Counted from the stretch's first letter, positions 2,136-37,449 are shown. The stretch is DNA of 38,785 nt from an uncultured archaeon (GCA_964362395.1 CAYIER010000002.1:1-38785); one strand, 5' to 3'. Notes: generated by a model not told the origin, from the letters alone. Numbers and translations: made by a program.

Positions 2136-2272
2136 CGCCCGCAAAATCAGGCGATGCCAACCGCAAAACCGGTTGACGCTGTTTGTCCCTTCTTTGACGG
2201 GACAGTCCCAGTGAAATTGGGACAAATTCGCCAACAGAATTTGCCGTTGCTTTTGTCCCGCCAAAGCGGAAC
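2136..2272. repeat. Mosaic hairpin element, copy A (six consecutive short hairpins between L24e and ndk)
   Basis: Hairpins: cgcccg-caaaat-caggcg, caaccg-caaaac-cggttg, gtcccttc-ttt-gacgggac, gtccca-gtgaaat-tgggac, aaattc-gccaaca-gaattt, gtcccgc-caaa-gcggaac. Collinear with copy J. Confidence 0.8.
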
Positions 2273-2288
2273 CACTTTGCACAAAATT

Positions 2289-2495
2289 TTATTTTGTCTT
2301 TTCACCTTTTTTCATTATTGCCTTGACCTTGTGGTGCGCTGCAGTCCACTTGACTTTCTGCGGAGACCTTTCAAGCTCAAGCAAATTTTTTTCGCACTTT
2401 CTGGAGCAGAAATAAAAAATCGTTCCGTCCTTTTTTGCAAAAATTTTTCCGGTTCCTCTTTCAATTCCTGACCCGCAAAACGAACAATTAACCAT
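2289..2495 (-). CDS. rpl24e: 50S ribosomal protein L24e
   Basis: CSFCGSGIERGTG...FCSRKCEKN zinc-ribbon signature, in the conserved L7Ae-S28e-L24e-ndk synteny. Confidence 0.9.
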   Translation of the reverse strand: MVNCSFCGSGIERGTGKIFAKKDGTIFYFCSRKCEKNLLELERSPQKVKWTAAHHKVKAIMKKGEKTK

Positions 2496-2513
2496 TGGTG
2501 CATCAACTCTTTT

Positions 2514-2720
2514 TCACTTTGCCTTGATTTCCTTTGCTTCGCGCTCCGTGCTCAACAAAACAATTATGTCGCCTTTCTTTACGGCTCCCTTGACGTTGCG
2601 CCTCTTTACCCTGCCCTCTTCTGGCCCCTCAAGTATCTTGCAAAGGACCTGGACAATTTCGCCGTAAACCCCTGTCCTTTGGATAATTTCAACCACTTCA
2701 GCCGGTGTTCCCTTGTCCAT
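2514..2720 (-). CDS. rps28e: 30S ribosomal protein S28e
   Basis: [19 protein letters not shown]...[23 protein letters not shown] pattern. Confidence 0.9.
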
Positions 2721-2734
2721 CTTTTTTCACCCAT

Positions 2735-3100
2735 TTAGTTTTTCAGGCCGCTCAATTTTTTTGCAAGGTCGTCAATGTCCTTTTTTGCGTCCCCCTCTGC
2801 GAGCACAGCAACCGAACTTGTCGAAACCCCAAGGCCGGCAAATTTTCCAAGCTCCTGCTTTGTTGAAACATAACTAAACGGGACGCCTTTTTCCCTGCAC
2901 AAAATAGGCAGGTGCATTACTATTTCTGGCGGGGAAACATCCTTTGCGATAAGAACAAGCTTTGCGTTCCCGCGCTCGATTGCCTTTGTGACCTCGTTTG
3001 AGCCGACCTTTAACTTGCCGGTCTTTTTTACCTTGTCAAGCACCCTCAACTGGGCTTCTTCGACTTCCTTTGGTACTTCAAACTTTACAAATTGCGCCAT
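2735..3100 (-). CDS. rpl7ae: 50S ribosomal protein L7Ae (K-turn binding protein)
   Basis: KVGSNEVTKAIERGNAKLVLIAKDVSPPEIV.HLP.LC.EKG.P motif. GGAGGT Shine-Dalgarno sequence upstream of the ATG. Confidence 0.95.
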   Translation of the reverse strand: MAQFVKFEVPKEVEEAQLRVLDKVKKTGKLKVGSNEVTKAIERGNAKLVLIAKDVSPPEIVMHLPILCREKGVPFSYVSTKQELGKFAGLGVSTSSVAVLAEGDAKKDIDDLAKKLSGLKN

Positions 3101-3134
3101 ATGCTTTTACCTCCAAAAAATTTTATCATCGGTA

Positions 3135-3210
3135 CGCCGGCAAATTCCGGCGACAAATTTGTCCCGTCTGCGACGGGACTTCCATGCACCAACAAATAAT
3201 ACTCATTGGC
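3135..3210. repeat. Mosaic hairpin element, copy B (upstream leader region of L7Ae)
   Basis: cgccgg-caaatt-ccggcg, then acaaattt, then gtcccgtc-tgc-gacgggac. A 26-nt block tttgtcccgtctgcgacgggacttcc is identical to copy E. Confidence 0.75.
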
Positions 3211-3350
3211 CTTTTAGCTTCAAAAACAAAATCGACTAAAAAATCGATTATTTCAAAAGGGGGCCAATATATATAAAATTCCCATCACAAGCCTTAAAAG
3301 GCTATTTTCGGGGTTTTAGACCAAAAAACCAGCTTTTGACTTAGATCTGC

Positions 3351-5021: not shown

Positions 5022-5118
5022 AAAATAAGTAATAGAAAAAGGCTTTAAAAGTGCAGGGAAAACATTTAAATATAATTTGTATTACAAAGTATTACGGGTG
5101 GTTTTTTTGGTTGCTGGC

Positions 5119-6500: not shown

Positions 6501-6531
6501 TCGCCAAGACCGTTTTTCAGAAAGTGGCAGA

Positions 6532-6624
6532 TATAGCAAACTGCTTATATTTTTGAACATTTTATGGCAGTTTGCTATATGCAAAGAGCAATTAAAAGTT
6601 CAATTATTTATGCTCTTTGCTATA
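6532..6624 (+). repeat. 93-nt double-hairpin repeat, copy 1
   Basis: tatagcaaactgc-N24-gcagtttgctata, then tgcaaagagc-N-gctctttgctata. 92/93 identical to 31684-31776. Confidence 0.9.
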
Positions 6625-6795
6625 GTTACACAAGACCAGGCAGTCAGACATCTTTACGAAAAAATTTTAGAAGCAATTGAAAAATCTGGACGAAAAGCAA
6701 CACTAAAAAGAATGGACACACTGCATCGTGTAAATATTCAAAGATTCAGGGAACAAATTGAATACCTAAAAAGACAAATAATGCAATCTATTTAA
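6610..6795 (+). CDS. Small hypothetical helical protein (61 aa)
   Basis: Its ATG lies inside the second hairpin of repeat copy 1. The N-terminal part of ORF-track entry 6475-6795 is repeat sequence, read in a different frame at copy 2. Confidence 0.35.
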   Translation: MLFAIVTQDQAVRHLYEKILEAIEKSGRKATLKRMDTLHRVNIQRFREQIEYLKRQIMQSI

Positions 6796-9812: not shown

Positions 9813-9868
9813 TTTTTTTATCACTTTGAATTTTTGCTTTTTTTATTGTAATCCAAATTTATATTATC

Positions 9869-9970
9869 GCCCCGTCTTCAGACGGGACACATCCGCGGTG
9901 TAACAAATTGGCAAAGAAAATATAATGATTATTCAACTGCCAATTTGTTAAAACGGACGCAAACGTTTTT
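9869..9970. repeat. Mosaic hairpin element, copy C (between tRNA-Leu and L18e)
   Basis: gccccgtc-ttca-gacgggac, then a long hairpin taacaaattggca-N24-tgccaatttgtta (13 bp perfect), then aaaacg-N8-cgtttt. Confidence 0.8.
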
Positions 9971-9984
9971 TTTATTTTTTTGAT

Positions 9985-10090
9985 TGCAGGGGGGAGGATT
10001 CGAACCCCCGAAGGCACTGAGCCACAGGATCGCTCATCTTATTTTATTGCATCTTAAGTCCTGCCCATTAAACCGCTTTGGTACCCCTGC
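9985..10090 (-). tRNA. tRNA-Leu (anticodon UAA), class II, with a ~22-nt intron at the canonical 37/38 position; no encoded CCA
   Basis: Minus strand: acceptor GCAGGGG/CCCCTGC plus A73, 3-bp D stem, anticodon stem CAGGA/TCCTG with loop CTTAAGA interrupted by an insert, long variable arm GGC-TCAGT-GCC, T arm GGGGG-TTCGAAT-CCTCC. Confidence 0.8.
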
Positions 10091-17382: not shown

Positions 17383-17807
17383 TTTTTGGCCTCCATCACA
17401 GTGGATTCAAGGTGCTTTTTTCCCCGAAAATAACCACCCTTAACCATAAGGTATGCTTTCCTGTAAGGGATTTTCATCTTCTGTTTTCCCTGCTTTAATT
17501 CCTTAAGCTTTTTCCTCTGCGCCCGAACAGCCCTCATCCATTTTTCCTTTGGATTTGTCCGCGCCTTTGCAGTTCCCTTTCTTTTACCAAACCCTCTTTT
17601 GCTTCCCTTCTTTCTTAAAAGCGCCCTTTTCTTATTCTTGCCTGCAAGCCTTTTTTCTTTGACAATCCCTTCCTTAATCAATAACCGCAGATCCTCTTTT
17701 GTCATTGCCTCAGCCACCCTTTCATTTTCAAGCGGGCTGACCCAAATCCTGCTCTTGCCTGTTTTAAGCAATTGCCCCGCCATCCCTTTTGCTTTCTGCG
17801 CCTTCAT
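17379..17807 (-). CDS. rpl19e: 50S ribosomal protein L19e
   Basis: G.SRIWVSP......A.T.ED.R.LI.EG.....R motif. ATG at 17807 lies in the relic junction; the ORF track uses GTG at 17816. Confidence 0.9.
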   Translation of the reverse strand: MKAQKAKGMAGQLLKTGKSRIWVSPLENERVAEAMTKEDLRLLIKEGIVKEKRLAGKNKKRALLRKKGSKRGFGKRKGTAKARTNPKEKWMRAVRAQRKKLKELKQGKQKMKIPYRKAYLMVKGGYFRGKKHLESTVMEAKK

Positions 17808-17819
17808 CTTTTTCACCCG
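17803..17819. repeat. Direct repeat, proximal copy: relic of the L32e stop region overlapping the L19e start
   Basis: ttcatctttttcacccg here versus ttcatcttttccacctg at 17943-17959 (15/17), 140 nt apart, flanking hairpin element D. Confidence 0.7.
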
Positions 17820-17922
17820 CCTGCAAAATCACGCCAACAAATTGGCAATTGAACAAATTCTAGAATATTCTTTCGCCAATTTGTTGCGACACTTTCCTGC
17901 CATCCCGCTTCGCTCAATGGCA
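17818..17922. repeat. Mosaic hairpin element, copy D (between L32e and L19e)
   Basis: A degenerate caaaat-loop hairpin, then the long hairpin aacaaattggc-N28-gccaatttgtt, then gcgacactttcc, then tgccat-N-aatggca. Confidence 0.8.
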
Positions 17923-17942
17923 CTTCAAAAATCAAATTTTCA

Positions 17943-17959
17943 TTCATCTTTTCCACCTG
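17943..17959. repeat. Direct repeat, distal copy: the functional 3' end of L32e (..RWKR-TGA)
   Basis: See 17803-17819. Confidence 0.7.
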
Positions 17960-24215: not shown

Positions 24216-24623
24216 TCATCCCCGCGCCGTGATTGCAGTGCTTGACTTTGTTGCGCCGATCCCTGCCTTTCCGTGCGACAGCCTCTTTCGGGTCAAAACA
24301 AATTCGCCCAAATAGTGGCCAAGCATTTTATCCATGACCGACATAACCTGGAATTCCTTCCCATTATAAACGGCAAACTTCAGCCCGACCATCTTTGGCA
24401 GAACCGGGAAATCCCTCAAATGCGTCCGAATGATTTTTGGCTCATGCCCCTGCTGCTTTTGCAAAAACGCGCTGCCGATTGCCCCCAAAAAACCCTTGCT
24501 GTAATTTCCCCTAAGCAAAGACCTCTTTATCCTTGAGCCTGCAATCACTGCAAACTGTGCCTCGCTCATTGCAACAAGCTCTTCCATTGTTTTTCCGCGA
24601 AAAGTAAATTCTTTTTTTACCAT
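24216..24623 (-). CDS. rps19: 30S ribosomal protein S19
   Basis: IRTH.RD..VLP.MVG....VYNGKEF..V.....M.GHYLGEF..TRK...HG motif. Confidence 0.95.
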   Translation of the reverse strand: MVKKEFTFRGKTMEELVAMSEAQFAVIAGSRIKRSLLRGNYSKGFLGAIGSAFLQKQQGHEPKIIRTHLRDFPVLPKMVGLKFAVYNGKEFQVMSVMDKMLGHYLGEFVLTRKRLSHGKAGIGATKSSTAITARG

Positions 24624-24633
24624 AACATCACAA

Positions 24634-24750
24634 CAACCGCAAAATCGGCACCAAATTGACAGTTGAACAATTCTGGATATTTTCTTTTGCCAATTCGGTG
24701 TGACACTTTTGTCCCGTCTGCGACGGGACTTCCGGCAAATAATTCATTGC
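24634..24750. repeat. Mosaic hairpin element, copy E (between L2 and S19)
   Basis: A truncated caaaat-loop hairpin, then the long hairpin caccaaattgaca-N26-tgccaattcggtg, then gtgacactttt, then gtcccgtc-tgc-gacgggac. About 85% identical to copy F over ~95 nt. Confidence 0.85.
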
Positions 24751-24769
24751 AATTTCCATAAAAACACAA

Positions 24770-25492
24770 TCACAATTTTTTATGCCTTCCCGTTCTCTTT
24801 GACGCAATCGCCCCGACCTTTCTTCCTGCAGGCGCATGCCTTGAAGTGGACTTTGATTTACCCGGATGGTGCTGTGAGCCGCCAAACGGATGCGAGTTCG
24901 GGTTCATTGCAACACCCCTCACAATCGGGTAATGCTTCCTTTTTGAATGGAACAAATGGTACCTTGGCCCGGCCTTAACCATGGGCTTTTCAACGCGCCC
25001 GCCGCCAGCGGCAAGCCCGATTGTTGCCCTGCAATGCGGGTGCAGTTCAGTTGTTTTGCCTGACGGCAACTTGACAAAAACATGCCCCTTGTCCTTTGAA
25101 AGAATCATTGAATACCCGCCGCCTGCACGCACAAGGCTTCCCCCGTCACCGGGGCTGTTCTCAATGTTAAAAATCGGGCAACCCTCAACACAGCTTTCAA
25201 GAGTCAAAACATTCCCCATTTCAAGCGCAGCATTTTTTCCAAACTCAACACGCTGCCCTACAACAGTACCCTCTGCCGCAATCGTGAAACCCATAGAGCC
25301 ATCATCAAACAAAATCTTTGCAAGCACGCTGCTGTTCGTCGGGTCATGCACAAACGCAACCAATTCCCCGACCCTCTTGCCAGTCAACTGTTTTTCGTCA
25401 AGCGAAAAATACCTTGCCACCTGCACATTGGACTTTCTTGCCCTAAAAATCGAGCCCTTCCCTTTCCTCTGGACCAAAATCCGCTTGCTCAT
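24770..25492 (-). CDS. rpl2: 50S ribosomal protein L2
   Basis: GN...L...P.G..I.NIE..PGDGG.L.R.GG and GVAMNP..HPFGG..HH.GK motifs. Confidence 0.95.
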   Translation of the reverse strand: MSKRILVQRKGKGSIFRARKSNVQVARYFSLDEKQLTGKRVGELVAFVHDPTNSSVLAKILFDDGSMGFTIAAEGTVVGQRVEFGKNAALEMGNVLTLESCVEGCPIFNIENSPGDGGSLVRAGGGYSMILSKDKGHVFVKLPSGKTTELHPHCRATIGLAAGGGRVEKPMVKAGPRYHLFHSKRKHYPIVRGVAMNPNSHPFGGSQHHPGKSKSTSRHAPAGRKVGAIASKRTGRHKKL

Positions 25493-25966
25493 TTACAGCA
25501 CCCCAAGCTTTGTCGCAATCTCGTCCGCACGGAACTGCCTGCTGATTTTAACAAACGCCCTCTTCCTTCCCTTTGTGTCCCGCAAAATATTCACCTTGTC
25601 AACCTTTATTTTATACAAACCCTCAACCGCATCCTTCACTTCAGATTTTGACGCCCCGCCATTCACAACAAACACCAGTTTGTTCTCAGACTCAATCATG
25701 CCCACCGACTTTTCCGTAATCAACGGGTGAAGAATGGTTTCAAATGCCTTGAGTGCAACCGTTTTGTCTGCTGGAAGCTCTCCCGTAAATTCCTTTACAA
25801 CAACACTTTTTTTTGCGCCACCTTTGGCCGCTTTTTTTTCAGCAATCTTTGAAGCGATTTTTTTCTTCGCCACAATTTTTTTTGCCACTTTCTGCACTTT
25901 GTGCGCCGCAGTTTTTTTTGCTGCAGCCTTTTTCTGTGTGGGTTTTTTTGCTTTCTGCTTAACCAT
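25493..25966 (-). CDS. rpl23: 50S ribosomal protein L23 with ~70-aa Lys/Ala-rich N-terminal extension
   Basis: The C-terminal 85 aa match L23 (ILHPLITEKS....E..NKLVFVV...A.K.E.K.AVE.LY..KV..VN). The N-terminus is low-complexity KKAAAKK. Confidence 0.9.
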   Translation of the reverse strand: MVKQKAKKPTQKKAAAKKTAAHKVQKVAKKIVAKKKIASKIAEKKAAKGGAKKSVVVKEFTGELPADKTVALKAFETILHPLITEKSVGMIESENKLVFVVNGGASKSEVKDAVEGLYKIKVDKVNILRDTKGRKRAFVKISRQFRADEIATKLGVL

Positions 25967-25973
25967 ACATTTA

Positions 25974-26005
25974 CCACTTGCCCTCTAAAGCCTTTATCGC
26001 GTCCT
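25974..26005. repeat. Direct repeat, proximal copy: relic of the L4 3' end (DAIKALEGKW-TAA) 4 nt upstream of the L23 ATG
   Basis: ccacttgccctctaaagcctttatcgcgtcct here versus 26087-26118 ccattttccctctaaagcctttatcgcgtcct (30/32), 113 nt apart. Confidence 0.85.
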
Positions 26006-26086
26006 TACCGCCTGCAAAATCAGGCGACACTTTTTCCCCATTCTTCGAATGGGGATTCTGCGCACAAATAAAAAACATCTCCATCA
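26006..26086. repeat. Mosaic hairpin element, copy H (between L4 and L23)
   Basis: cgcctg-caaaat-caggcg (26009-26026), then acacttttt, then ccccatt-cttcg-aatgggg (26036-26054). Bracketed by the 32-nt direct repeat. Confidence 0.85.
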
Positions 26087-26890
26087 CCATTTTCCCTCTA
26101 AAGCCTTTATCGCGTCCTCGCTCCACAAAGTGAGCCTTCCCGGGACAGCGCCCGGCGCAAGGAGCTTTGCATTGACGTTTTTCACATTCACAACCTCTAC
26201 ACCCTCAATGTTTCGCGCCGCCTTAAAAATCTTCGCCGAATCACTCACAACAATCAAAACACTCTTTGCCTTCTTGTACCGCCTTCCCCTCTTCTTTCCC
26301 TTTCCAGCCCTTCTCTTCCGCGCAGCCTTTGCCCTATCAACATCCAAAATCAACGAAAGCCTCTCAAGCGCCAAAACCACATTTTTTGTCCTGTCAAGCG
26401 CCTCGATTTTTTTCTCAACAATAACTGGAAAAACAAGTTTGTCCGAAATTTTGTGCCCCCTCTTTCGCACCAGTTCCGCAACCGCTGTCGCCGCAATCGC
26501 GCTTCTTGTCGCCTTCTGCTTTTCCTTGCGGTTAATCTTTTCCTTAAGGATTTTTTCAACCTTTGGCGGATGTGCCGCCGGGCCACCAACCGCCCAAGGA
26601 ACAAGCGCTACTTTTCCCGAAGAAATATATCTCCTGTTCCGCATCCTTGGCAGCCGTGCCTTTTCAATGTTGATTGTCCTGTGCATCTGCGGCTTTCGCC
26701 TTGCACCAATATAGCGCGCAGTGTAATTCCTTCCCGCGCTCTTCTTTGTTCCCTTTGGCTGCATTGCCGCGCTCTCAATTGACAACACGGCCCGCTTTAT
26801 CAGGTTTCCATCAATCGGCTCGCTGAAAACACCCGGCAGTTCAATTTCCCGGACTTTCTGCCCCTCAATGCTCAACACGCTTGCTTTCAT
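26084..26890 (-). CDS. rpl4: 50S ribosomal protein L4
   Basis: Typical archaeal L4 (...GRNYTARYIGARR..Q......GGPAAHPPK...) located between L3 and L23. Confidence 0.95.
   Translation of the reverse strand: MKASVLSIEGQKVREIELPGVFSEPIDGNLIKRAVLSIESAAMQPKGTKKSAGRNYTARYIGARRKPQMHRTINIEKARLPRMRNRRYISSGKVALVPWAVGGPAAHPPKVEKILKEKINRKEKQKATRSAIAATAVAELVRKRGHKISDKLVFPVIVEKKIEALDRTKNVVLALERLSLILDVDRAKAARKRRAGKGKKRGRRYKKAKSVLIVVSDSAKIFKAARNIEGVEVVNVKNVNAKLLAPGAVPGRLTLWSEDAIKALEGKW
26087..26118. repeat. Direct repeat, distal copy: the functional 3' end of L4 (..EDAIKALEGKW-TGA)
   Basis: See 25974-26005. Confidence 0.85.
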
Positions 26891-26907
26891 AAAAAATCAA
26901 CCGGATT

Positions 26908-26928
26908 ATTTTTTCCCGCCACCCATTG
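26908..26928. repeat. Direct repeat, proximal copy: relic of the L3 3' end (MGGGKK-TAA) 15 nt upstream of the L4 ATG
   Basis: attttttcccgccacccattg here versus 27018-27038 attttttcccgccgcccattg (20/21), 110 nt apart. Confidence 0.85.
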
Positions 26929-27017
26929 CGGCCGCGTGCAAAATCACGCGACACTTTTGTGCCATTTCGCTTTGCTCAATGGCAATGTCATTGCTCGCCA
27001 ATAATTTGTGACTGTTC
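26929..27017. repeat. Mosaic hairpin element, copy G (between L3 and L4)
   Basis: cgcgtg-caaaat-cacgcg (26933-26950), then acacttttg, then tgccatt-tcgctttgctc-aatggca (26960-26984). Bracketed by the 21-nt direct repeat. Confidence 0.85.
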
Positions 27018-28167
27018 ATTTTTTCCCGCCGCCCATTGTAGCTTCCTTTATTTCATCCGCAACGCTTTTCTTTTCAACCTTTGCCTCTTTCTTTACAACA
27101 ATCCGCTGTGCCCGGACTTCGTCTCCTGCAACCGCTTCCTTCTCCTTCCTCTTTACCCCAAGAACAGAAAGCTCCGCGACATTAAACAAACCCTTGTAAC
27201 CAACCCTGATCGGGTCCCTTAAAGCAACAGCCCTCTTTACCGGCCCAGGCGTGCTTCCGCCAAGCAAAATAAACTGGTTCTTTATCACACCATAGCCTTC
27301 AAAACCGTGCGGCACATTTATTTCCGCAGGATTATTTGAAATCCTCAAAAGCCTCTTGTTGAGTTCCGTCCTGGACTGATACCCCATCTGGCCAGGCCTT
27401 GCAACAAACCTCATAACCGTTGAAGGATTCCACGGCCCAATACTTCCAACAACCCTTCTCTTCTTTGCCTTTCGCCTGTGCATCTTTACACCAAACCTTT
27501 TGATGACACCGGTAAAGCCCTTTCCGGCATCCACTGCCTTCACGTCAACAAACTGTTTTTCCTCAAACACCTCGTTGACTGAAAGATCCTTGCCAAGCTT
27601 TTCCTTTGCAAACTTCCACTGGTCGGCAACGCTTCCGCCAACAAAAACCTCAAACACATCCGCCACCTTTTTCCCAAAACCAAGCAAACCCGGCCTAGTG
27701 CTGCACAAAAGCTTTACTTTAACGATTTTGTCAACCTGCTTTTCCAAATCAGAAACCGTAGCATAACTTTTTTCGCCCCCTTCTTTCCCGCCCTTTTTCT
27801 TATTGCTCTTTCTCTTAAAATCAGGGTGGCGCTTCCTGAAAAACTTGTCAGGCTTCTCAACAGTCGCTTCGCCCAAAACACGCAGCGCGCCCTGCTCTTT
27901 CGTATAAGCCCTAATGCCAAAAACAGACAGCGGAGGGCACTCAATAACCGTCAAAGGAATCACGACCTGTTGCCCAAAACTCGTGGCCTTCTCCTGCTTA
28001 TTAACCGCAACCGCATGAACCATCCCAGCCTTATAGCCGACAAAATTCAACGGCTTTGCTTTCTGCCTGGAAAGCACATTGTCTGACCTAAAAGTAGCCA
28101 GTTCCCTTGCAGCCCTCTTTCTTGGGTAAAATGCCAGTGAGCCAGACCTTGGCTTGTGCCGAGTCAT
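27016..28167 (-). CDS. rpl3: 50S ribosomal protein L3
   Basis: PR.GSLAFYPRKRA, F.GYKAGM.H and GKGF.GV.KR.G....RRK motifs. First gene of the L3-L4-L23-L2 cluster. Confidence 0.95.
   Translation of the reverse strand: MTRHKPRSGSLAFYPRKRAARELATFRSDNVLSRQKAKPLNFVGYKAGMVHAVAVNKQEKATSFGQQVVIPLTVIECPPLSVFGIRAYTKEQGALRVLGEATVEKPDKFFRKRHPDFKRKSNKKKGGKEGGEKSYATVSDLEKQVDKIVKVKLLCSTRPGLLGFGKKVADVFEVFVGGSVADQWKFAKEKLGKDLSVNEVFEEKQFVDVKAVDAGKGFTGVIKRFGVKMHRRKAKKRRVVGSIGPWNPSTVMRFVARPGQMGYQSRTELNKRLLRISNNPAEINVPHGFEGYGVIKNQFILLGGSTPGPVKRAVALRDPIRVGYKGLFNVAELSVLGVKRKEKEAVAGDEVRAQRIVVKKEAKVEKKSVADEIKEATMGGGKK
27018..27038. repeat. Direct repeat, distal copy: the functional 3' end of L3 (..ATMGGGKK-TGA)
   Basis: See 26908-26928. 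Confidence 0.85.
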
Positions 28168-28324
28168 TTACATACCACTTTCAAAAACCACTGAAAATGC
28201 ACACAGGCCGGCAAAACGCCAGCAAAAAAGGGGGGAACCTTTCAAAATGCTAAAAAAAGCCAAAAAACAGCTATTTTTTTTGCATTTATATCCTTAGAAG
28301 ATTTACTAAGGATACAGTGTGCTT

Positions 28325-28393
28325 CGCCGACAAAATTCGGCGGTGCTTTCCTGCCATTTCGCTTCGCTCAATGGCAATGCGCCTTGTAGGCGC
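28325..28393. repeat. Mosaic hairpin element, copy I (upstream of the L3 operon)
   Basis: cgccga-caaaat-tcggcg, then gtgctttcc, then tgccatt-tcgcttcgctc-aatggca, then gcgcct-tgt-aggcgc. Confidence 0.8.
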
Positions 28394-28604
28394 TTTTAAT
28401 ATAAATTATATGTAATTGCCCCATAAAAGGTATTTAAAGGTATTGTGGGGCAGGTTATAAATGGTTGCCCAAAAACAAATTTACGAAGGACATTAATTCG
28501 GGATAAGACAAAACCTAACTCCTGCAAAAAAGTATAAATATATGTTGGGGCTTAATATAAGTTGTTTATAATCATAAAAAATTTATTCATTAGTTGTGGT
28601 AGTT

Positions 28605-29626: not shown

Positions 29627-31447
29627 TCAGTTTGGTTTGCTTGTCACCCATGCTTCTGTGCCTCTGCTTTGGGCAGCAAAGCCAATGGATAAAACAAGCA
29701 CGGCGATAGCAGCGAATGCGGCAAAGGCAATCCCGATTGCAGTTGCGTTGCCTGCCAAAAGCGCAAAAGCGCTTGAAGCAAACCCGCCGCTCTGCACCGG
29801 CGCAATCTGTCCAGCCTGCTGCATCGGGAACTCTTTTTCAAAAACAACATTTCTTGCAACTGTTTTGCCGTCAAACTCCACTGTCAAAAGCGCGTTCACC
29901 GGCGACTCATTCACGCCGTTATCGGAAACAAAAAAATTGAAATACTTTGTCTCGCCCGCGCCAATGTTTAACACAAGCGGCGTGAAAGCAAACCCTTTTT
30001 TGGGATTAGAAATTTTCACCACTGCCTGTTTTGCGCTGTGCGAAGTGTTTGCCAAAGCGACTTCTATGTCCGCCTTGCCATTCAAAAACATTACCCTTGA
30101 AGAATAACTTGAAAATACAAGCCCGCCTTCCTGCAAGTCAATTGGCGGAATTGCCGGTGTGGGCGTGTTTTTTTTCATGAAAACTTTTGAATATTTTTCC
30201 TCAAGAAGCCTTGAGCCAGAAAAAATTGAATAATAAACAAGTTCTCCATCAACTGCCCCGTTTACTGAAACAGTCCGCGAAACAATGCCGTGCGAAGGGA
30301 CAACAACAACCGACGGGTAAACAATTGCATTTTCGCTTGAAGAAATTTTTACCAACAAATCGCTTCCAGATTTGTTGTCAAGGGAAATTTCCGCAAAACC
30401 CGCAGAGCCCTCTGTGCCAATCCTTATTGGAAAAACAAATCCGAAAGAAGGCGCCAAATTTGCCGTTTGCCCGCTTCCTTTCACAAAAACCAAAAAATCC
30501 TGTTCAACACTGCACTGTTTTCCGCCTTCAAAGTGCCCGATGGCCTTAACGCTAATGCTTTCAGTTGAGTCATTTTCAGCGCCAAAAGCGTCAACTGTAA
30601 CGCTCACGCGGCCTCTGTCGCCGCCAAGGATTTTTGCATCCAAAACATTCCCAAAAGCGTTGAATCCGCTATCGTTTTCCTTGACTGTGACAGCATCAAT
30701 GAAAAAATCCTCGCCGGCATTGTTTGTAACATACAGGCTTTTTGTCACGCTCTGGTTTGCCATTGTGTCAATTCCTGTGCCAACAAATCCAAGCACATTG
30801 CCGCAATTAATTTCTGCCAGACTCGCTGGAAAATTCAATGTGTTTGGCCTGCTTTCCGCAAATTCAAGAAAAGACTCTGTTGGGGTTACCTGCTGCCAGC
30901 CCTGATTTGAAGGCACAGCGGCACTCCCGCCAGCCGCCGGAGTTACAGTAATTGTTTTCTGCACAGTTCTAAGCGTGCTTTCGGTGTTCAAACTATTTTT
31001 AATGTTAGTTAAAGCCTCCGACTGCCTTTTTGCCTCGTCCGCTTTCGCTTGCGAATTCCTCACTTCTGCCAAGGGATAAATTTTTGCATGGCTTGCAATT
31101 GGCGGGAAAAAATAATTGTAATTGTAAAAAGCCGGATAAAATCCATCAACAAGTTCGCCATAAATGCTGTACTTTGGGTATAACACACTGGCAAGTGAAT
31201 AATCTACTAGTATTTCTTTTGCCAATGTGTTACTGTAAAGGTAACCAAACCTGTGGTTTTGCACATAGCCAGAATAAATCACGCCCGAAAACGGAAGCAG
31301 AGGCACAAGGCAGCCTGCGCCCCCGCAGGCTGAAAAGAAAGCATTGCCTGCTGCAAACGAATAAAAGAAACCGCCAGCACTTACTGTGGAAAGCAAAAAC
31401 ACCAAAGCCAAGCCTACGGATAACACGTTTTTGAAAAAAGCATCCAT
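29627..31447 (-). CDS. Large cell-surface protein (N-terminal signal/TM, beta-rich repeats, C-terminal TM anchor)
   Basis: The N-terminus MDAFFKNVLSVGLALVFLLSTVSA and the C-terminus ...GNATAIGIAFAAFAAIAVLVLSIGFAAQSRG are both hydrophobic. The body is Thr/Ser/Val/Asn rich. ATG at 31447 lies ~30 nt from a TATA-like ATTTAAAT. Confidence 0.7.
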   Translation of the reverse strand: MDAFFKNVLSVGLALVFLLSTVSAGGFFYSFAAGNAFFSACGGAGCLVPLLPFSGVIYSGYVQNHRFGYLYSNTLAKEILVDYSLASVLYPKYSIYGELVDGFYPAFYNYNYFFPPIASHAKIYPLAEVRNSQAKADEAKRQSEALTNIKNSLNTESTLRTVQKTITVTPAAGGSAAVPSNQGWQQVTPTESFLEFAESRPNTLNFPASLAEINCGNVLGFVGTGIDTMANQSVTKSLYVTNNAGEDFFIDAVTVKENDSGFNAFGNVLDAKILGGDRGRVSVTVDAFGAENDSTESISVKAIGHFEGGKQCSVEQDFLVFVKGSGQTANLAPSFGFVFPIRIGTEGSAGFAEISLDNKSGSDLLVKISSSENAIVYPSVVVVPSHGIVSRTVSVNGAVDGELVYYSIFSGSRLLEEKYSKVFMKKNTPTPAIPPIDLQEGGLVFSSYSSRVMFLNGKADIEVALANTSHSAKQAVVKISNPKKGFAFTPLVLNIGAGETKYFNFFVSDNGVNESPVNALLTVEFDGKTVARNVVFEKEFPMQQAGQIAPVQSGGFASSAFALLAGNATAIGIAFAAFAAIAVLVLSIGFAAQSRGTEAWVTSKPN

Positions 31448-31542
31448 TGTATACAAATTGCGGCACACCAAGTATTTAAATGTTACTTTTTAACGAGAAT
31501 TAGTGAATTGTATGTAAATTGTATGTAAAATCCGGCTGCTTC

Positions 31543-31635
31543 AACCGCAAAATCGGCACCAAATTGACAGTTGAATAATTATGACTAATTTCTTTTGCCA
31601 ATTTGGTGTGGCGCTTTCACCTGCTAAAGCGGGAC
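31543..31635. repeat. Mosaic hairpin element, copy F (upstream of the surface protein gene)
   Basis: aaccgcaaaatcgg, then the long hairpin caccaaattgaca-N26-tgccaatttggtg, then a degenerate terminal hairpin. Close paralog of copy E. Confidence 0.85.
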
Positions 31636-31646
31636 TGCTAAAGGAG

Positions 31647-31658: not shown

Positions 31659-31683
31659 CGCCCAAAATGGCTGCGTGTGCATC

Positions 31684-31776
31684 TATAGCAAACTGCTTAT
31701 ATTTTTGAACATTTTATGGCAGTTTGCCATATGCAAAGAGCAATTAAAAGTTCAATTATTTATGCTCTTTGCTATA
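31684..31776 (+). repeat. 93-nt double-hairpin repeat, copy 2
   Basis: 92/93 identical to 6532-6624. The single difference is at 31728. Confidence 0.9.
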
Positions 31777-31816
31777 ATTTGCGGAGCCAATTTGTGGCAG
31801 CATTTTTTCAGTCATG

Positions 31817-33799: not shown

Positions 33800-33949
33800 T
33801 TTGCTTTTTCACCTCCCCTTGCACCGGAAACCCGGTGTGTCTCTTTAAATGGATTTTTAACCCACTTTCAACAAAAACTATCTGTGCAAACAATTAAAAC
33901 CATTAATCCCAATTTGGCTTCTTTGCATGGCTACCTTTGTGCAGATAGC

Positions 33950-34042
33950 TATAGCAAACTGCATTTGTTTTTGAACTATTGAGACAGTTTGCTATATGCA
34001 AAAAGCAATTAATTTGTTCAATTATCTATGCTCTTTGCTATA
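33950..34042 (+). repeat. 93-nt double-hairpin repeat, copy 3 (diverged, ~80% identical, same length)
   Basis: Shares the termini tatagcaaactg...ctctttgctata and both stems. Differences are concentrated in the loops. Confidence 0.8.
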
Positions 34043-34208
34043 TATAATTTCACACAAAAGGGCTCAAAACGCAAATTTTACAGACTGGCATTCAAATCAA
34101 TTGTTTCAAAAAAACGTTTCAACGGCGAAGGCAACCATTATTTTGAGCTATCAATCAATTCAATACCAGATATTGCCAAAATCGTAAATTTACCAAGATT
34201 ATTTTGAA

Positions 34209-34851: not shown

Positions 34852-35023
34852 AGCCTGCCGTCAAATGCAGATTATAGCAAACCAAAAAAATAATTCCAAA
34901 AATTTTCATGGTTCCTTGCAAAATGCATGCATTTTGCGATGCCTCGCAGAGTTTCACTCTGCAAGGTGCTATCTATCAAACCACAAAATAAATGTAAAAT
35001 TTTATGTGGTTTGATATAATGCC

Positions 35024-35410
35024 TTAAAAATCAACCAGTTGTAGGTTGTCAATTTTTCCAAAATGCTTTTTATTCAAGGTAAAAAGCTTCTCGTTTTTTG
35101 CCAGGCAAATCCCTGCAATTGTTTCGTCATATTTTCCTATGGGGGTCCCTTTCTTCTTTTGCATTGCTTTTACTTGTACAACGTTGCTTAATTCCATTGA
35201 AGTGTAATCATAGATTTTAAATTTTTGCAGCATGAGTTTGCCTTTGTTGATAGAATCTTCCGTTGAAAAATATAGTCCGACTAAAAATTCTTCCGCATTC
35301 AAAATCGTGGTTGCAAGAGAATCAAATGTTTCAAGCCACTTGATTTTTTCAATTATTTTTTCATTGCCTTTGGAGAATGCAATTAAAACATCGGTGTCTA
35401 TGACAACCAT
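35024..35410 (-). CDS. vapC: PIN-domain toxin VapC
   Basis: VVIDTDVLI start, then conserved acidic positions (..NAEEF.., ..YDETIA..) and LFTLNKKHF. Overlaps the upstream antitoxin gene. Confidence 0.85.
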   Translation of the reverse strand: MVVIDTDVLIAFSKGNEKIIEKIKWLETFDSLATTILNAEEFLVGLYFSTEDSINKGKLMLQKFKIYDYTSMELSNVVQVKAMQKKKGTPIGKYDETIAGICLAKNEKLFTLNKKHFGKIDNLQLVDF

Positions 35411-35646
35411 AATTTATCAAGCCTTTTATCCCTTAATTTGTCAAGTTTATCTGTTTTTTTCCTGTAGCCTGTAATTGCATTTTCAACTTTTTTTGCTTCC
35501 CTTTCGGATAAAAAGCCTGCAAATTCCAAAATGCTTGTTTTCTCCTTGTCCGCAAGCCGCTCAAACAGGTCAGAAAAACTTTCTTCAGTTTTTTTTACTT
35601 TAACCAATTTATTATAAACTGTGTCTTTTATAGTCAGTGTTTTCAT
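35398..35646 (-). CDS. vapB: VapB-type antitoxin (archaeal UPF0330/COG1753-like)
   Basis: MKTLTIKDTVYNKLVKVKKTEESFSDLFERL pattern. 13-nt overlap with vapC. Confidence 0.75.
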   Translation of the reverse strand: MKTLTIKDTVYNKLVKVKKTEESFSDLFERLADKEKTSILEFAGFLSEREAKKVENAITGYRKKTDKLDKLRDKRLDKLWLS

Positions 35647-35744
35647 ATTTTTTCACAAAAACATCTGCCCATAAATGTATTTAAACATAATGTTTAAACA
35701 TTTCTCATTTTTTATAGTAATGCATGATTATTTGGCATATTGCC

Positions 35745-35875
35745 GCACCATAGAAGATGGTGCACGTATGCGTTGTAAACCAACCGCGAAATCGGTTGAC
35801 GCTTTAGTGTCCTCTTCGAGGACAGTCCCGCTGCAAGCGGGACAAATTCGTCGCCAGAATTTGCTGGCGGGCGCA
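35745..35875. repeat. Mosaic hairpin element, copy J (between archease and vapB); collinear with copy A
   Basis: Hairpins: gcaccat-agaag-atggtgc, caaccg-cgaaat-cggttg, gtcctc-ttc-gaggac, gtcccgc-tgcaa-gcgggac, aaattc-gtcgcca-gaattt (alternative fold cgccag-aatttg-ctggcg). Confidence 0.8.
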
Positions 35876-35884
35876 AAAGTTTTT

Positions 35885-36310
35885 TTAAACATCAATCACA
35901 ACAGTTGCCTTAAATTTTCCTTTCAGTTTTTCAATTTTAAACAAATGCTTTGTGGCCGCCTTGACATCGCTTCGAAGTCGCTTGTCAGGATACTTTATAT
36001 GCTCTCCAAAACATTTTGCACTTAACCCAAACTCTTTTTCTTTTTTTATTTTTGTTTCAAAGCGCGAAAACACAATTTCCTGCACGTCTTTCACAAAAAC
36101 AAGCTCTGACAGCCAGCCAAAAAGCAGTTCTTCAAGCGTTGCGGCAGATAGCCGGATTTCCACCTTGGTTTTTGGCCCGATTTTTTTTGTGTCAGCCATT
36201 ATCTCAAAAAGTGCTTCCGCGGCGTTCTCAAACAGCTCTTCCACTGTTTTCCCGTAAGCCTCAAATGCCGACTCAGCAATTGCCGTGTCCTCCAAAAATA
36301 GGTACTTCAT
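35885..36310 (-). CDS. Archease (RtcB activator)
   Basis: YLFLEDTAIAESAFEAYGKTVEELFENAAEALF start and VKAATKHLFKIE....KATVVIDV C-terminus. Confidence 0.9.
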   Translation of the reverse strand: MKYLFLEDTAIAESAFEAYGKTVEELFENAAEALFEIMADTKKIGPKTKVEIRLSAATLEELLFGWLSELVFVKDVQEIVFSRFETKIKKEKEFGLSAKCFGEHIKYPDKRLRSDVKAATKHLFKIEKLKGKFKATVVIDV

Positions 36311-36371
36311 CCAAAAACAAGTTTGGTCAAAAAGTATTTAAACAAGTAAAAACATTAATTTATAGACTTTT

Positions 36372-36815
36372 ATGTTAAGCAAACCGTTGCAGGCGGCAAT
36401 GATTTTTGGAATAGTAATCGTCTCTTTTGCAGCCCTATTGGGGCAGGCGGGGAACTTTTTTTCAAAAGCACAGGGAGCACAAAAAATCACTGGAACAATT
36501 GTTTTGGTTGATGATTTTAAATTTGTGACTGATGGTGGAGCGAAATTTGGTCAAACTTTTGTCAAAAGCACTGTTGCACTGCCGGGCACTTCCTGTAGTG
36601 TAATGGTTGCCGGCTGTTGTGCCAATTTCGGGGGAGGAGCATCATTTAATACAAGTCTATACATAGGCTCCAACAATTTTCCAGGGACTCTAGGCCAACT
36701 GTGCAACTCAGGAAATGCAACCCTTGCTGGCAGTTCAACTTATGAAGTAGGCATGAATTGTGCTTCCATAGATGCAATCAGCAATTTGTCGGTTTCCTAT
36801 TCATGCACCATATAA
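36372..36815 (+). CDS. Small secreted/anchored Cys-rich protein with a pilin-like (class III-type) N-terminus
   Basis: MLSKPLQAAMIFGIVIVSFAALL hydrophobic N-terminus. The Gly/Ser/Asn-rich C-terminal part has 7 Cys. Confidence 0.45.
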   Translation: MLSKPLQAAMIFGIVIVSFAALLGQAGNFFSKAQGAQKITGTIVLVDDFKFVTDGGAKFGQTFVKSTVALPGTSCSVMVAGCCANFGGGASFNTSLYIGSNNFPGTLGQLCNSGNATLAGSSTYEVGMNCASIDAISNLSVSYSCTI

Positions 36816-36831
36816 AAAAAACGATGCCTAA

Positions 36832-37029
36832 AAAATTTTCAAAGAATACCCTTTCACCGTTTTTGTAAAAAATGGCGAAGCCAATCTCCCAAAAGACAGC
36901 ATGGTTTTGCTGAACCAAATAAGGACAATTTCAATCAACGACAGGGCAGTGCAAAAAATTGGTTCAGTAAATTTTCAAACAATGGAAAAAGTTGATGGGG
37001 TAATCAAAATAAGCCTTGCATTAAAATGA
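36832..37029 (+). pseudogene. MazF/PemK-family toxin remnant (C-terminal ~65 aa, no start codon)
   Basis: Own translation: KIFKEYPFTVFVKNGEANLPKDSMVLLNQIRTISINDRAVQKIGSVNFQTMEKVDGVIKISLALK-stop. Resembles the C-terminal ..S.v..dQiRtid..R....iG pattern. A stop lies immediately upstream at 36829. Confidence 0.55.
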
Positions 37030-37033
37030 ATTG

Positions 37034-37342
37034 TCATTCTCGCAGTTCCATTTCCACATGAACGTTTTCCGGCACGTCAACGCGAAGAATCCGCCTTAGC
37101 GTTCGCTCGTCGCTTTCAATGTCAATCAGCCTTTTATGTATCCGCATCTGCCACTTTTCGTAGGATTCGGTTCCGCCGCCGCAGGGGGCTTTGCGTGTGG
37201 GGATAATGAGTTTTTTTGTGGGCAAGGGTATTTTTCCAGAGTGCTTTACGCCTGTTTTTTTTGCAACGTCAATTATTTGGTCGCAGATTTCCTCCAGCCG
37301 ATTGTAATCGGTGCTGGTCAGTTTTATCCTTGCCTTTTGCAT
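37034..37342 (-). CDS. rps10: 30S ribosomal protein S10
   Basis: MQKARIKLTSTDYNRLEEIC......A...G....G.IPLPTK motif. The ORF-track TTG start at 37372 runs into hairpin element K. Confidence 0.95.
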   Translation of the reverse strand: MQKARIKLTSTDYNRLEEICDQIIDVAKKTGVKHSGKIPLPTKKLIIPTRKAPCGGGTESYEKWQMRIHKRLIDIESDERTLRRILRVDVPENVHVEMELRE

Positions 37343-37366
37343 TTCCCAAAACCCTTGCGTGAGTTT

Positions 37367-37449
37367 TAACAAATTGGCAAAAGAAATCCCATAAATTATT
37401 CACTTGCCAATTTGTTACGCCGCATATATGCCCCGCCTGAAGGCGAGAC
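37367..37449. repeat. Mosaic hairpin element, copy K (between EF-1alpha and S10)
   Basis: Long hairpin taacaaattggcaa-N23-ttgccaatttgtta (14 bp perfect), then gccccgcc-tgaa-ggcgagac. Confidence 0.8.

What the first reader, a model, noticed from the sequence alone, without database searches (positions are those of the whole stretch)
2136..37449. Dispersed family of mosaic hairpin modules (BIME/REP-like) between genes, including inside ribosomal-protein operons
At least 11 intergenic loci are built from a shared set of modules:
- A 2136-2272
- B 3135-3210
- C 9869-9970
- D 17818-17922
- E 24634-24750
- H 26006-26086
- G 26929-27017
- I 28325-28393
- F 31543-31635
- J 35745-35875
- K 37367-37449

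The modules are:
1. a 6-bp hairpin with a conserved CAAAAT-type loop
2. a linker ACACTTTT
3. a terminal hairpin, either GTCCCGTC-tgc-GACGGGAC, TGCCATT-N11-AATGGCA or CCCCATT-cttcg-AATGGGG
4. a long hairpin AACAAATTGGCA-N23-28-TGCCAATTTGTT

Modules occur in different combinations, and loop-sequence comparison shows both orientations. They create 80-140 nt spacers at junctions that are normally contiguous in archaea (L3/L4, L4/L23, L2/S19, L32e/L19e). Several place a U-run just after the upstream stop codon on the sense strand (D, E, H). I know of no described archaeal element with this architecture. No transposase gene is present in the window.
Basis: partly seen in the sequence, partly recalled or inferred. 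Interest (0 to 1): 0.8.

Follow-up and report, generated by a model that had tools for sequence, protein, structure and literature searches.

The report
Mobile hairpin-pseudoknot repeats in a DPANN archaeon
The spacers are copies of a previously undescribed family of short, highly folded, non-coding repeat elements that have inserted themselves (duplicating 10-35 bases of target each time) between ribosomal-protein genes, next to and inside tRNA genes, and once in frame inside a protein gene of a small-genome groundwater archaeon (Iainarchaeia/Diapherotrites).

Summary
All 11 loci share modules far beyond chance. More copies exist in the window, and about 50 in 177 kb of related contigs from at least four Iainarchaeia genomes.

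There are two related families with one layout: an AT-rich box, a covarying GC hairpin (M3), then two interleaved covarying helices. These two helices are pseudoknot-like in family 2; in family 1 they may be alternative hairpins. The long hairpin M4 is an optional insert.

They are insertions:
- Four relatives have tight L3/L4, L4/L23, L2/S19 and L32e/L19e junctions.
- The window copies are flanked by direct duplications of 15-35 nt that include the upstream gene's stop codon.
- Other copies have duplications of 10-32 nt.

The elements have no terminal inverted repeats, and no transposase or reverse transcriptase was seen. They match no Rfam family, phage or plasmid. So they resemble REP/BIME, BOX and MITE elements in lifestyle but belong to none of them.

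Simple family-1 copies are always co-oriented with the downstream gene or tRNA. In operons they are spanned by small "bridge" ORFs, which is suggestive only.

The best reading is a selfish, non-autonomous, structure-defined mobile element. Whether it moves through DNA or RNA is unresolved.

The parts
26929..27015 (-). G: family-1 short element between the L3 stop and the L4 start. Layout: 5' AT-rich box, M3 TGCCATT/AATGGCA, linker CAAAAGTGTCGC, M1 CGCGTG-ATTTTG-CACGCG.
   Evidence: R2 E=8e-14; empty site in L048-L051
26906..26928 (-). Target duplication of G, downstream copy (CAATGGGTGGCGGGAAAAAATAA). The partner copy is 27016-27038 and forms the real L3 C-terminus plus stop.
   Evidence: 21/23 identical; relatives show a single copy
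26006..26083 (-). H: family-1 short element between the L4 stop and the L23 start.
   Evidence: R2 E=7e-14; fold z=-3.6; empty site in relatives
25971..26005 (-). Target duplication of H, downstream copy, 35 nt including a second stop codon. The partner is 26084-26118, the end of L4.
24634..24752 (-). E: family-1 long element (with M4) between the L2 stop and the S19 start. A diverged duplication of the TTGTGA..ATGG junction lies at 24617-24633 / 24753-24772.
17818..17940 (-). D: family-1 long element between L32e and L19e. The duplicated GGTGRAAAAGATGAA junction lies at 17801-17817 / 17941-17957.
   Evidence: fold z=-3.3
3134..3210 (-). B: family-1 short element (beta type: linker CAAATTTGT, loop AATTTG), 35 nt upstream of L7Ae.
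   Evidence: R2 E=3e-17
28320..28404 (-). I: family-1 short element in the leader upstream of L3. L049 has a family-1 element at the same place, with conserved flanks.
31540..31646 (-). F: family-1 long element upstream of the 614-aa ORF.
   Evidence: (D2, 89% identical to E)
2135..2272 (.). A: composite between L24e and NDK. It holds a solo M1 hairpin (2136-2153), unit 2157-2203 (-), unit 2205-2250 (+), and an extra hairpin at 2255-2272.
   Evidence: R2 E=1e-15 and 9e-16
35706..35875 (.). J: composite. It holds a family-2 5' part (box + M3 + linker) at 35706-35802 (+), a family-1 unit at 35780-35825 (-), and a family-1 unit at 35825-35870 (+).
9837..9979 (+). C: family-2 long element (box, M3, linker, M4, AAAACG/CGTTTT helix, T-run). 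It is antisense to its neighbours and abuts the 3' end of an intron-containing tRNA (9985-10090, -).
   Evidence: fold z=-4.4
37342..37482 (-). K: family-2 long element with an inverted M4 loop, between EF1A and S10. This junction is only 52 nt in L050.
   Evidence: fold z=-5.7
31182..31231 (-). Solo M4-type hairpin (AACACACTGGCA..TGCCAATGTGTT). It is inserted in frame as about 17-19 extra residues in ORF 29627-31471 and is absent from the L049 ortholog.
26906..27019 (-). Bridge ORF across G (37 aa). Its ATG overlaps the L3 stop as ATGA, and it ends at the duplicated stop 15 nt before L4. Analogous ORFs: H 25971-26090, D 17813-17947, E 24628-24759, A 2124-2282.
   Evidence: (called by the source's gene caller)

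Best explanation
These are copies of a lineage-wide family (Iainarchaeia / 'Diapherotrites', DPANN) of short (about 60-140 nt), non-coding, non-autonomous mobile elements. The family is defined by a folded single strand rather than by terminal inverted repeats.

Shown:
- The common layout is an AT-rich box, then the variable-sequence hairpin M3, then a conserved linker, then two interleaved helices. In family 1 these are linker/loop plus M1. In family 2 they are GGAUU/AAUCC plus AAACG/CGUUU followed by a U-run.
- The 12-bp hairpin M4 is an optional insert. It can also occur alone.
- The copies are insertions, and each is flanked by a duplication of 10-35 nt of target.

Inferred:
- A trans-acting enzyme not encoded in the window recognises the fold and inserts the element at staggered breaks of variable width.
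- In this compact genome, only insertions that leave genes intact survive. These are:
  - copies just after a stop codon, where the duplication regenerates both the upstream gene end and the downstream start region
  - copies in tRNA introns
  - copies flush against tRNA or SRP RNA genes
  - one copy in frame in a tolerant protein region
- Inside operons the copies sit in the sense orientation and stay open in one frame. A small bridge ORF that starts on the upstream stop (ATGA/TGATG) and ends a few nt before the next start could therefore preserve termination-reinitiation coupling.

Whether the mobile intermediate is DNA or RNA is not resolved.
For: Insertion:
- The L3/L4, L4/L23, L2/S19 and L32e/L19e junctions are -4 to +18 nt in L048-L051 but 117-146 nt here.
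- The window copies have flanking duplications of 23, 35, about 16 and about 17 nt that include the stop codon.
- Other copies have duplications of 32 nt (L026), 16-17 nt (L074) and 10 nt (L016).
- Family-2 copies have T-runs on both flanks or on neither.

Multi-copy and spread:
- Model R1 gives 51 hits and R2 gives 37 hits in 177 kb.
- Copies occur in Hainich contigs, the Californian MAG JACPKT01, L049, L050 and JGI Ga0209541.
- A different element sits at the same L2/S19 junction in JACPKT01.
- Tandem and nested copies exist.
- Copies sit inside tRNA introns.
- M4 occurs solo and in frame in a CDS.

Structure:
- 96% and 94% of cells are paired, against 34-50% in the slid controls.
- 14 of 17 and 12 of 19 pairs show double changes.
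- Fold z-scores range from -1.7 to -5.7, and five of the seven sense-strand sequences folded are at or below -3.3.

Orientation: 12 of 12 simple family-1 copies are co-oriented with the downstream gene or tRNA.

Bridge ORFs: found at 5 of 5 junctions. The product of the shuffle probabilities is 3e-4 with a start codon and 8e-3 without. Coupling is known to fail at a spacing of about 20 nt (PMC10666635).
Against: - No mobilising enzyme was found. No transposase or RT family was hit by the 26 window ORFs run against Pfam, and none was recognisable by eye in 29 large ORFs of related loci.
- There are no terminal inverted repeats, and the 5' ends are poorly conserved.
- Long, variable target duplications are unusual for prokaryotic DNA transposons.
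- Conserved covarying interleaved helices across genomes only 60-70% identical in L4, together with a copy at the same leader position in two genomes, would also fit a selected RNA function.
- The bridge-ORF criterion was defined after seeing the data. Stop triplets are about 2-fold depleted on both strands of the family, so open frames come cheaply.
- No presence/absence polymorphism was seen within the population: L001-L004 all carry G and H.
Confidence: 0.6

Rival explanations
1. RNA-mediated (SINE-like) retroposition. The element is transcribed, often as part of host transcripts. Its structured 3' domain is recognised by a reverse transcriptase, and it is copied into nicked DNA by target-primed reverse transcription. 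This would give variable-length duplications.
For: - Target duplications are variable, 10-35 nt.
- There are no terminal inverted repeats.
- The 3' end is sharply defined and structured, whereas the 5' end is loosely defined.
- Some copies are 5'-truncated, for example L047 and L087.
- In family 2 the element's 3' end always joins the T-run that begins the duplication.
- Copies are strictly co-oriented with host transcription, and M1 ends exactly at tRNA 5' ends, which is an RNase P site.
- G-U pairs outnumber A-C pairs 11 to 4 on the sense strand.
- Diverse DGRs, and hence RTs, have been reported from metagenomic data of DPANN archaea, the superphylum that includes Diapherotrites (PMC5758913).
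Against: - No RT was seen in any sequence examined.
- No TPRT retroposon other than group II introns is known in archaea (my own knowledge).
- Most copies are full length.
- The AT-rich, promoter-like box is carried along with the element. An external archaeal promoter would not be.
- Family-1 duplications do not begin with T-runs.
Confidence: 0.15
2. Host-selected structured RNA modules that multiplied by duplication and are kept for function, not mobility. Possible roles are a cis-acting leader, a terminator or attenuator, a processing site, an mRNA-stability element, or a multi-copy small RNA gene or ribozyme.
For: - Covariation is found in all helices, including an interleaved pair, with conserved single-stranded linkers.
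- The architecture is conserved across genomes as far apart as L050.
- The same position in the L3 leader is occupied in both the window and L049.
- There is a TATA-like box upstream and a hairpin plus U-run downstream in family 2.
- The orientation bias is strict.
Against: - The operon copies are absent from the closest relatives and are flanked by target duplications.
- Family 2 occurs in both orientations relative to genes (C antisense, K sense).
- Copies sit in tRNA introns in either orientation.
- Copies occur in tandem and nested.
- There is no Rfam match.
- At orthologous sites the element is replaced by a different subtype while the flanks stay conserved.
Confidence: 0.17
3. REP/BIME-type elements, or IS200/IS605-derived PATE-type elements, mobilised as single-stranded DNA hairpins by a Y1 HUH enzyme (RAYT/TnpA) encoded elsewhere in the genome.
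For: - The elements are hairpin-based, mosaic and extragenic, and sit just after stop codons.
- M3 loops are often GAA/GCA closed by C-G, a motif I recall (own knowledge) as an unusually stable DNA mini-hairpin.
- The single orientation over a window with uniform GC skew could reflect lagging-strand targeting.
- M4 inserts without a clear duplication.
Against: - From my own knowledge, HUH-mediated insertion makes no target duplication. Here duplications of 10-35 nt flank both families.
- There is no GTAG-type conserved 5' tetranucleotide.
- No RAYT or TnpA was seen.
Confidence: 0.07
4. Chance similarity of low-complexity or terminator-like palindromes.
For: The M4 pattern alone also hits unrelated bacterial palindromes. 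A 12-mer with 2 mismatches is at chance level.
Against: - Multi-module matches have E values down to 1e-38 and 1e-21.
- The composite patterns are about 20-50 fold above shuffle expectation.
- The covariation controls support real structure.
Confidence: 0.01

Closest known systems
REP/BIME elements of enterobacteria (REPtrons)
   Same: Short GC-rich hairpins combine with defined linkers into mosaics. They are extragenic and often lie between co-transcribed genes just after stop codons. Copy number is high, and no enzyme is encoded in the element.
   Different: The host is archaeal. The elements here are flanked by 10-35 nt target duplications and lack the GTAG-palindrome signature. Their core includes interleaved helices and an AT-rich box. 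No RAYT was found.
MITEs, for example Neisseria Correia elements, ERIC/IRU, Sulfolobus SM1-4
   Same: Small, non-autonomous insertions with target duplications. They are co-transcribed with neighbouring genes, form RNA hairpins, and may carry promoter-like sequence.
   Different: There are no terminal inverted repeats. The duplication is long and variable rather than a fixed 2-10 bp. No parent IS is known.
BOX elements of Streptococcus pneumoniae
   Same: Modular build, with optional or repeated internal modules between conserved end modules. They are strongly folded and intergenic within operons.
   Different: The sequences are unrelated and the host is bacterial. From my own knowledge, BOX ends are inverted-repeat-like, and no long variable duplications are reported.
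SINEs / non-LTR retroposons (eukaryotic)
   Same: Variable-length target duplications, no inverted repeats, a structured 3' recognition domain, association with tRNA genes, and dependence on an enzyme in trans.
   Different: No RT partner is known. There is no A-rich or LINE-derived tail. The promoter-like box would have to be internal. Nothing of this kind is known in archaea.
In-frame palindromic inserts: Rickettsia palindromic elements and Methanocaldococcus jannaschii palindromic repeats with coding potential
   Same: The solo M4 hairpin adds about 17-19 residues in frame to a protein. The elements are depleted in stop triplets.
   Different: Only one such case was seen here. Most copies are intergenic.

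Membership tests
REP/BIME (REPtron) | An imperfect palindrome of about 35-40 nt with a conserved 5' GTAG-type tetranucleotide | tested here: not met
   The modules are M1 (6 bp with an ATTTTG loop), M3 (7-8 bp, variable sequence) and M4 (12 bp). No conserved GTAG is seen in the alignments.
REP/BIME (REPtron) | Insertion without target-site duplication | tested here: not met
   Duplications of 10-35 nt flank G, H, D, L074, L016 and L026.
REP/BIME (REPtron) | A cognate RAYT (Y1 HUH) gene in the genome | not testable with these tools
   Only about 39 kb of this genome plus scattered contigs were available. None was seen among the ORFs examined.
MITE | Terminal inverted repeats matching a parent IS | tested here: not met
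   The best terminal inverted match scores 4-6, the same as shuffles, for 7 copies with mapped ends.
MITE | Target-site duplication of fixed, family-specific length | tested here: not met
   Duplications are present but measure 10, 16-17, 23, 32 and 35 nt.
MITE | Small, non-coding, multi-copy, with empty sites in relatives | tested here: met
SINE-like retroposon | Variable-length target duplications and no inverted repeats | tested here: met
SINE-like retroposon | A partner reverse transcriptase and a shared 3' end | not testable with these tools
   No RT was found in the sequences at hand.
SINE-like retroposon | A promoter carried inside the element | tested here: inconclusive
   A conserved TATA-like box (TTTATAT / ATATTAYCG) is part of the repeat unit. 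There are no transcription data.
Any Rfam family (ribozymes, riboswitches, sRNAs) | A covariance-model match | tested here: not met
   With E up to 1, only tRNAs, SRP RNA and sub-threshold matches far below their gathering scores were found. One of these (Ysr49, 28 bits against a gathering score of 95) overlaps the family-1 copy in L085 on the opposite strand. None is a credible match to the elements, either in the window or in 9 loci.
Integron attC site | R''/L''...L'/R' boxes with extrahelical bases, next to cassette ORFs, with no duplication | tested here: not met
   By reading the sequences: M4 is a perfect 12-13 bp stem with no bulged bases, the core sites match GTTRRRY only loosely, the elements sit in the core r-protein operon, and they have duplications.

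The most novel reading that the evidence does not exclude
The family is an RNA-level mobile element of archaea: a small structured RNA made of a hairpin plus a pseudoknot-like core. It would be either a new self-processing or ribozyme-like fold, or the recognition domain for a reverse transcriptase. It would be co-transcribed with host genes and copied back into DNA at nicks, making it the first SINE-like retroposon described in Archaea.
Probability: 0.13. Interest if true: 0.9.

Novelty: new variant of a known kind. Interest (0 to 1): 0.62.

Why it matters
DPANN archaea have very small, gene-dense genomes. They are not expected to tolerate hundreds of parasitic inserts, least of all inside the universally conserved ribosomal-protein operon.

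What this family shows:
- How such inserts survive: target duplications rebuild both gene ends, possible bridge ORFs span the insert, and tRNA introns and tRNA flanks act as safe havens.
- An insertion signature not matched by known prokaryotic small repeats: long variable duplications, no inverted repeats, and a covarying fold.

Practical consequences:
- The repeats appear to break assemblies. The JACPKT01 r-protein contig (L048) ends inside a copy.
- They create spurious small ORF calls, such as the 37-aa 'genes'.
- They lengthen tRNA introns so that tRNA finders miss the genes.

If the intermediate is RNA, this would open a new class of archaeal retroelement or ribozyme.

Tried and rejected
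- **Rfam.** I scanned the window and 9 related loci at E up to 1. Only tRNAs, SRP RNA and noise were found.
- **Phages and plasmids.** blastn of C against INPHARED phages and of D against PLSDB plasmids gave no match. The IMG/VR hits to the M4 pattern do not extend beyond a generic palindrome.
- **Terminal inverted repeats.** At chance level.
- **Transposase or RT.** None was found among the window ORFs run against Pfam, and none was recognisable in 29 large ORFs of related contigs read by eye. The one recombinase found is a tyrosine integrase beside tRNA-Cys in L085. It looks like an ordinary integrated element, not a mobiliser of these repeats.
- **-1 frameshifting.** G, H and D bridge ORFs are all in the -1 frame, and G follows GGGAAAAAA. 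I rejected frameshifting because the structured part lies too far (about 30-60 nt) from the putative slip site, and a start codon overlapping the stop explains the frame.
- **Other motifs.** I considered K-turn/L7Ae sites, C/D or H/ACA sRNAs, BHB intron boundaries and attC sites by reading the sequences. The defining motifs are absent.
- **Stop-free 'coding-neutral' design specific to the sense strand.** Not supported. Stop triplets are depleted about 2-fold on both strands.
- **Literature.** Four full-text searches found no prior description.


Full report
**Context**

The window is a ribosomal-protein and translation-factor region of an archaeon, with almost all genes on the minus strand. 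Pfam identifies:
- NDK, L24e, L7Ae, GluRS, L18e, RpoD, L19e, L32e, S19 and L2
- EF1A, archease, a PIN/VapB pair and S10
- RtcB, S2 and a TrmB regulator

An identical L4 protein lies on contigs from the 0.1 µm fraction of Hainich groundwater well H51. The nearest L4 homologs, at 60-71% identity, are annotated Candidatus Diapherotrites. The organism is therefore an Iainarchaeia-type DPANN archaeon.

Yes. The 11 loci contain the modules as described.
- The M1+linker pattern occurs 3 times against 0.13 expected, and the GTCCCG..CGGGAC hairpin 4 times against 0.08 expected.
- The repeat finder groups the loci by itself.
- Profile and covariance searches give E values down to 1e-38 and 1e-21.
- Additional pieces exist in the window: a solo M4-type hairpin at 31182-31231 and a family-2 5' part inside locus J.

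**Further copies elsewhere**

A pattern scan of 185,579 species-representative genomes found the long hairpin M4, in its proper context, in only one genome. That genome is the Californian groundwater MAG 'Candidatus Iainarchaeum archaeon' JACPKT01, where it occurs on nine contigs. All other hits were unrelated bacterial palindromes.

A metagenome scan added about 14 Hainich contigs and two JGI contigs. Copies also occur in L049 (67% L4 identity) and L050 (63%).

Over 177 kb of such sequence, model R1 finds 51 matches and R2 finds 37.

**Anatomy**

There are two families with one plan. Both are read here on the gene-sense strand of the operon copies.

| | Family 1 (B, D, E, F, G, H, I; units within A and J) | Family 2 (C, K and most copies elsewhere) |
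|---|---|---|
| 5' box | AATTATTTG-like | (GTAATYCAAAWTTATAT)...ATATTAYCG |
| Hairpin | M3, GC-rich, variable sequence | M3 |
| Linker | CAAAAGTGTCGC or CAAATTYGT | CAYRTAT |
| 3' part | M1, a 6-bp stem with loop ATTTTG or AATTTG | GGATT-GC-AAACG-AATCC-TTT-CGTTT, then a T-run |

- In family 2 the two helices (GGATT/AATCC and AAACG/CGTTT) interleave like an H-type pseudoknot.
- In family 1 the linker CAAAA(G)/CAAATT is complementary to the M1 loop in the same topology. Because the whole loop would be paired, alternative hairpins are as likely as a pseudoknot there.
- M4 (AACAAATTGGCA-loop-TGCCAATTTGTT) is optional in both families and always sits between the 5' arms of the two helices.
- The M4 loop is asymmetric (AAAGAA...ATTCAMY). 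It is inverted in some subfamilies: K, L010, L011, L042 and L016.
- M4 also occurs alone, as an in-frame insert of about 17-19 residues in ORF 29627-31471. The insert is absent from the L049 ortholog.

**Covariation**

- On 15 short family-2 copies, 96% of cells are paired, against 34-50% when partners are slid. 14 of 17 pairs show double changes, and every helix covaries, including both interleaved ones.
- On 9 family-1 units, 94% of cells are paired. M3 and M1 covary strongly. The linker/loop helix has one covarying pair, A-U in 5 units against U-A in 4.
- G-U pairs outnumber A-C pairs 11 to 4 on the sense strand, a weak hint of RNA-level selection.
- Single copies fold better than shuffles, with z from -1.7 to -5.7.

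**They are insertions**

In JACPKT01 (L048), L049, L050 and L051, the L3/L4, L4/L23 and L2/S19 junctions overlap or are at most 18 nt apart. The same holds for L32e/L19e in L051. In the window these junctions are 117-146 nt.

Each window insert is bracketed by a direct duplication of the original junction:
- **G:** 23 nt, CAATGGGYGGCGGGAAAAAATRA
- **H:** 35 nt
- **D:** about 16 nt, which duplicates an ATGA stop/start overlap
- **E:** a diverged TTGTGA...ATGG

The upstream copy completes the upstream gene and includes its stop codon. The downstream copy keeps the original distance to the next start codon.

Elsewhere:
- L026 has a perfect 32-nt duplication, L074 has 16-17 nt, and L016 has 10 nt. 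In L016 the insert lies 13 nt inside a gene and rewrites its C-terminus.
- Family-2 copies usually have TTTTTTTATT-like runs on both sides, or on neither. The T-run therefore belongs to the target.
- A different element (family 2, antisense) follows the L2 stop in JACPKT01, where that contig ends. This is an independent hit at the same permissive junction.
- The leader upstream of L3 carries a family-1 element in both the window (locus I) and L049. The flanks are conserved but the subtype differs.

**Where they sit**

- The 12 simple family-1 copies are all co-oriented with the gene or tRNA just downstream.
- In L010, L047 and L085, M1 ends exactly at a tRNA 5' end.
- Family-2 copies lie inside the 131-nt intron of a tRNA-Met in L010 (antisense) and the 142-nt intron of tRNA-Cys in L085. 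They also lie directly before tRNA-Ile (L086), beside SRP RNA (L020), and right after the window's own intron-containing tRNA.
- Standard tRNA finding missed these genes until long introns were allowed.

**Bridge ORFs**

On the sense strand, each operon-internal insert (G, H, D, E and composite A) is crossed by an open frame.

| Insert | Where the frame starts | Ends this far before the next start |
|---|---|---|
| G | ATG overlapping the upstream stop (ATGA) | 15 nt |
| D | ATG overlapping the upstream stop (ATGA) | 5 nt |
| H | ATGGTGATG | 4 nt |
| E | the duplicated S19 start | 4 nt |
| A | GTG at +9 | 6 nt |

- In G, H and E the frame ends at the duplicated stop codon.
- The source's gene caller had called two of these as 37-aa genes.
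- The sequence differences between the two duplication copies in G (TAA against TGA) and in H (synonymous GGCAAG against GGAAAA, and TAA against TGA) are exactly those that create the bridge start codons.
- Dinucleotide shuffles give such a bridge at 0.08-0.31 per junction. The product is 3e-4, or 8e-3 without requiring a start codon.
- The criterion was post hoc, and stop triplets are 2-fold depleted on both strands of the family. I treat this as suggestive only.
- It is mechanistically sensible, because termination-reinitiation coupling in archaea collapses at about 20 nt spacing (PMC10666635; PMC6728339).

**What it is not**

- No terminal inverted repeats
- No Rfam family
- No phage or plasmid relative
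- No transposase or RT in the ORFs examined

REP/BIME membership fails on the palindrome signature and on the presence of duplications. Strict MITE membership fails on inverted repeats and on a fixed duplication length.

**Interpretation**

The best-supported reading, at about 0.6, is a selfish, non-autonomous mobile element family. It is recognised through its fold and inserted at staggered breaks of variable width. Selection then filters the copies down to harmless sites and orientations.

The DNA-versus-RNA question is open. Features that would suit target-primed reverse transcription, at about 0.15:
- variable duplications
- no inverted repeats
- a precise structured 3' end
- T-run-first duplications in family 2
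- co-orientation with transcription

Against it, no RT is in hand. A selected RNA function stands at about 0.17. The deep conservation of a covarying fold keeps it alive, and it may apply to some copies such as the L3 leader. An HUH/REP-type mechanism, at about 0.07, conflicts with the duplications.

**Verdict**

This is a genuine, abundant and previously undescribed element family. It is a new variant of the 'small dispersed structured repeat' kind, with unusual insertion signatures.

Noticed in passing
window 6527-6627, 31679-31779, 33945-34045: A separate repeat of about 100 nt, present in three copies at 63-96% identity. It is built from two adjacent hairpins (TATAGCAAACTGC...GCAGTTTGCTATA and GCAAAGAGC...GCTCTTTGC) with AT-rich loops. 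Each copy lies at or overlaps the start of a small plus-strand ORF. The only Rfam hit is weak (ES056, E=0.57).
   Followed up: partly
window 9985-10090 (-): A tRNA with a long variable arm and a 25-nt intron, missed by ARAGORN and found by Rfam. It lies 14 nt after the rpoD-like gene and directly before element C.
   Followed up: partly
L010 812-1016; L085 1511-1724; L047 1678-1917 (-): tRNA genes with unusually long introns of 131-153 nt packed with hairpin repeats. Default tRNA scans miss them.
   Followed up: yes
L085 1783-2982 (+): A 399-aa tyrosine recombinase (PF00589, E=8e-10) about 60 nt downstream of tRNA-Cys. It suggests an integrated element at that tRNA. I saw no link to the repeats.
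   Followed up: partly
window 35024-35646 (-): A VapB/PIN (VapC) toxin-antitoxin pair lies in the stretch between archease and RtcB, which are adjacent genes in L050 and L051. Element J abuts the pair.
   Followed up: no
window 190-996 (-): An ORF with an intein splicing domain (PF14890). Its host gene was not identified, and its relation to the window edge was not checked. L051 has an intein inside RtcB.
   Followed up: no
L048 2546-2578; L083 2985-3031: Contigs end inside repeat copies, so the family appears to fragment metagenome assemblies of these genomes.
   Followed up: no
L095 about 22-160 (-): A family-2 copy whose M3 hairpin is itself interrupted by an insert of about 70 nt made of further hairpins, that is, a nested insertion.
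   Followed up: no
window 25493-25966 (L23), 27016-28167 (L3): These r-proteins carry long lysine-rich extensions: L23 is 157 aa with an N-terminal K/A-rich tail, and L3 is 383 aa. The extensions are shared with relatives.
   Followed up: no
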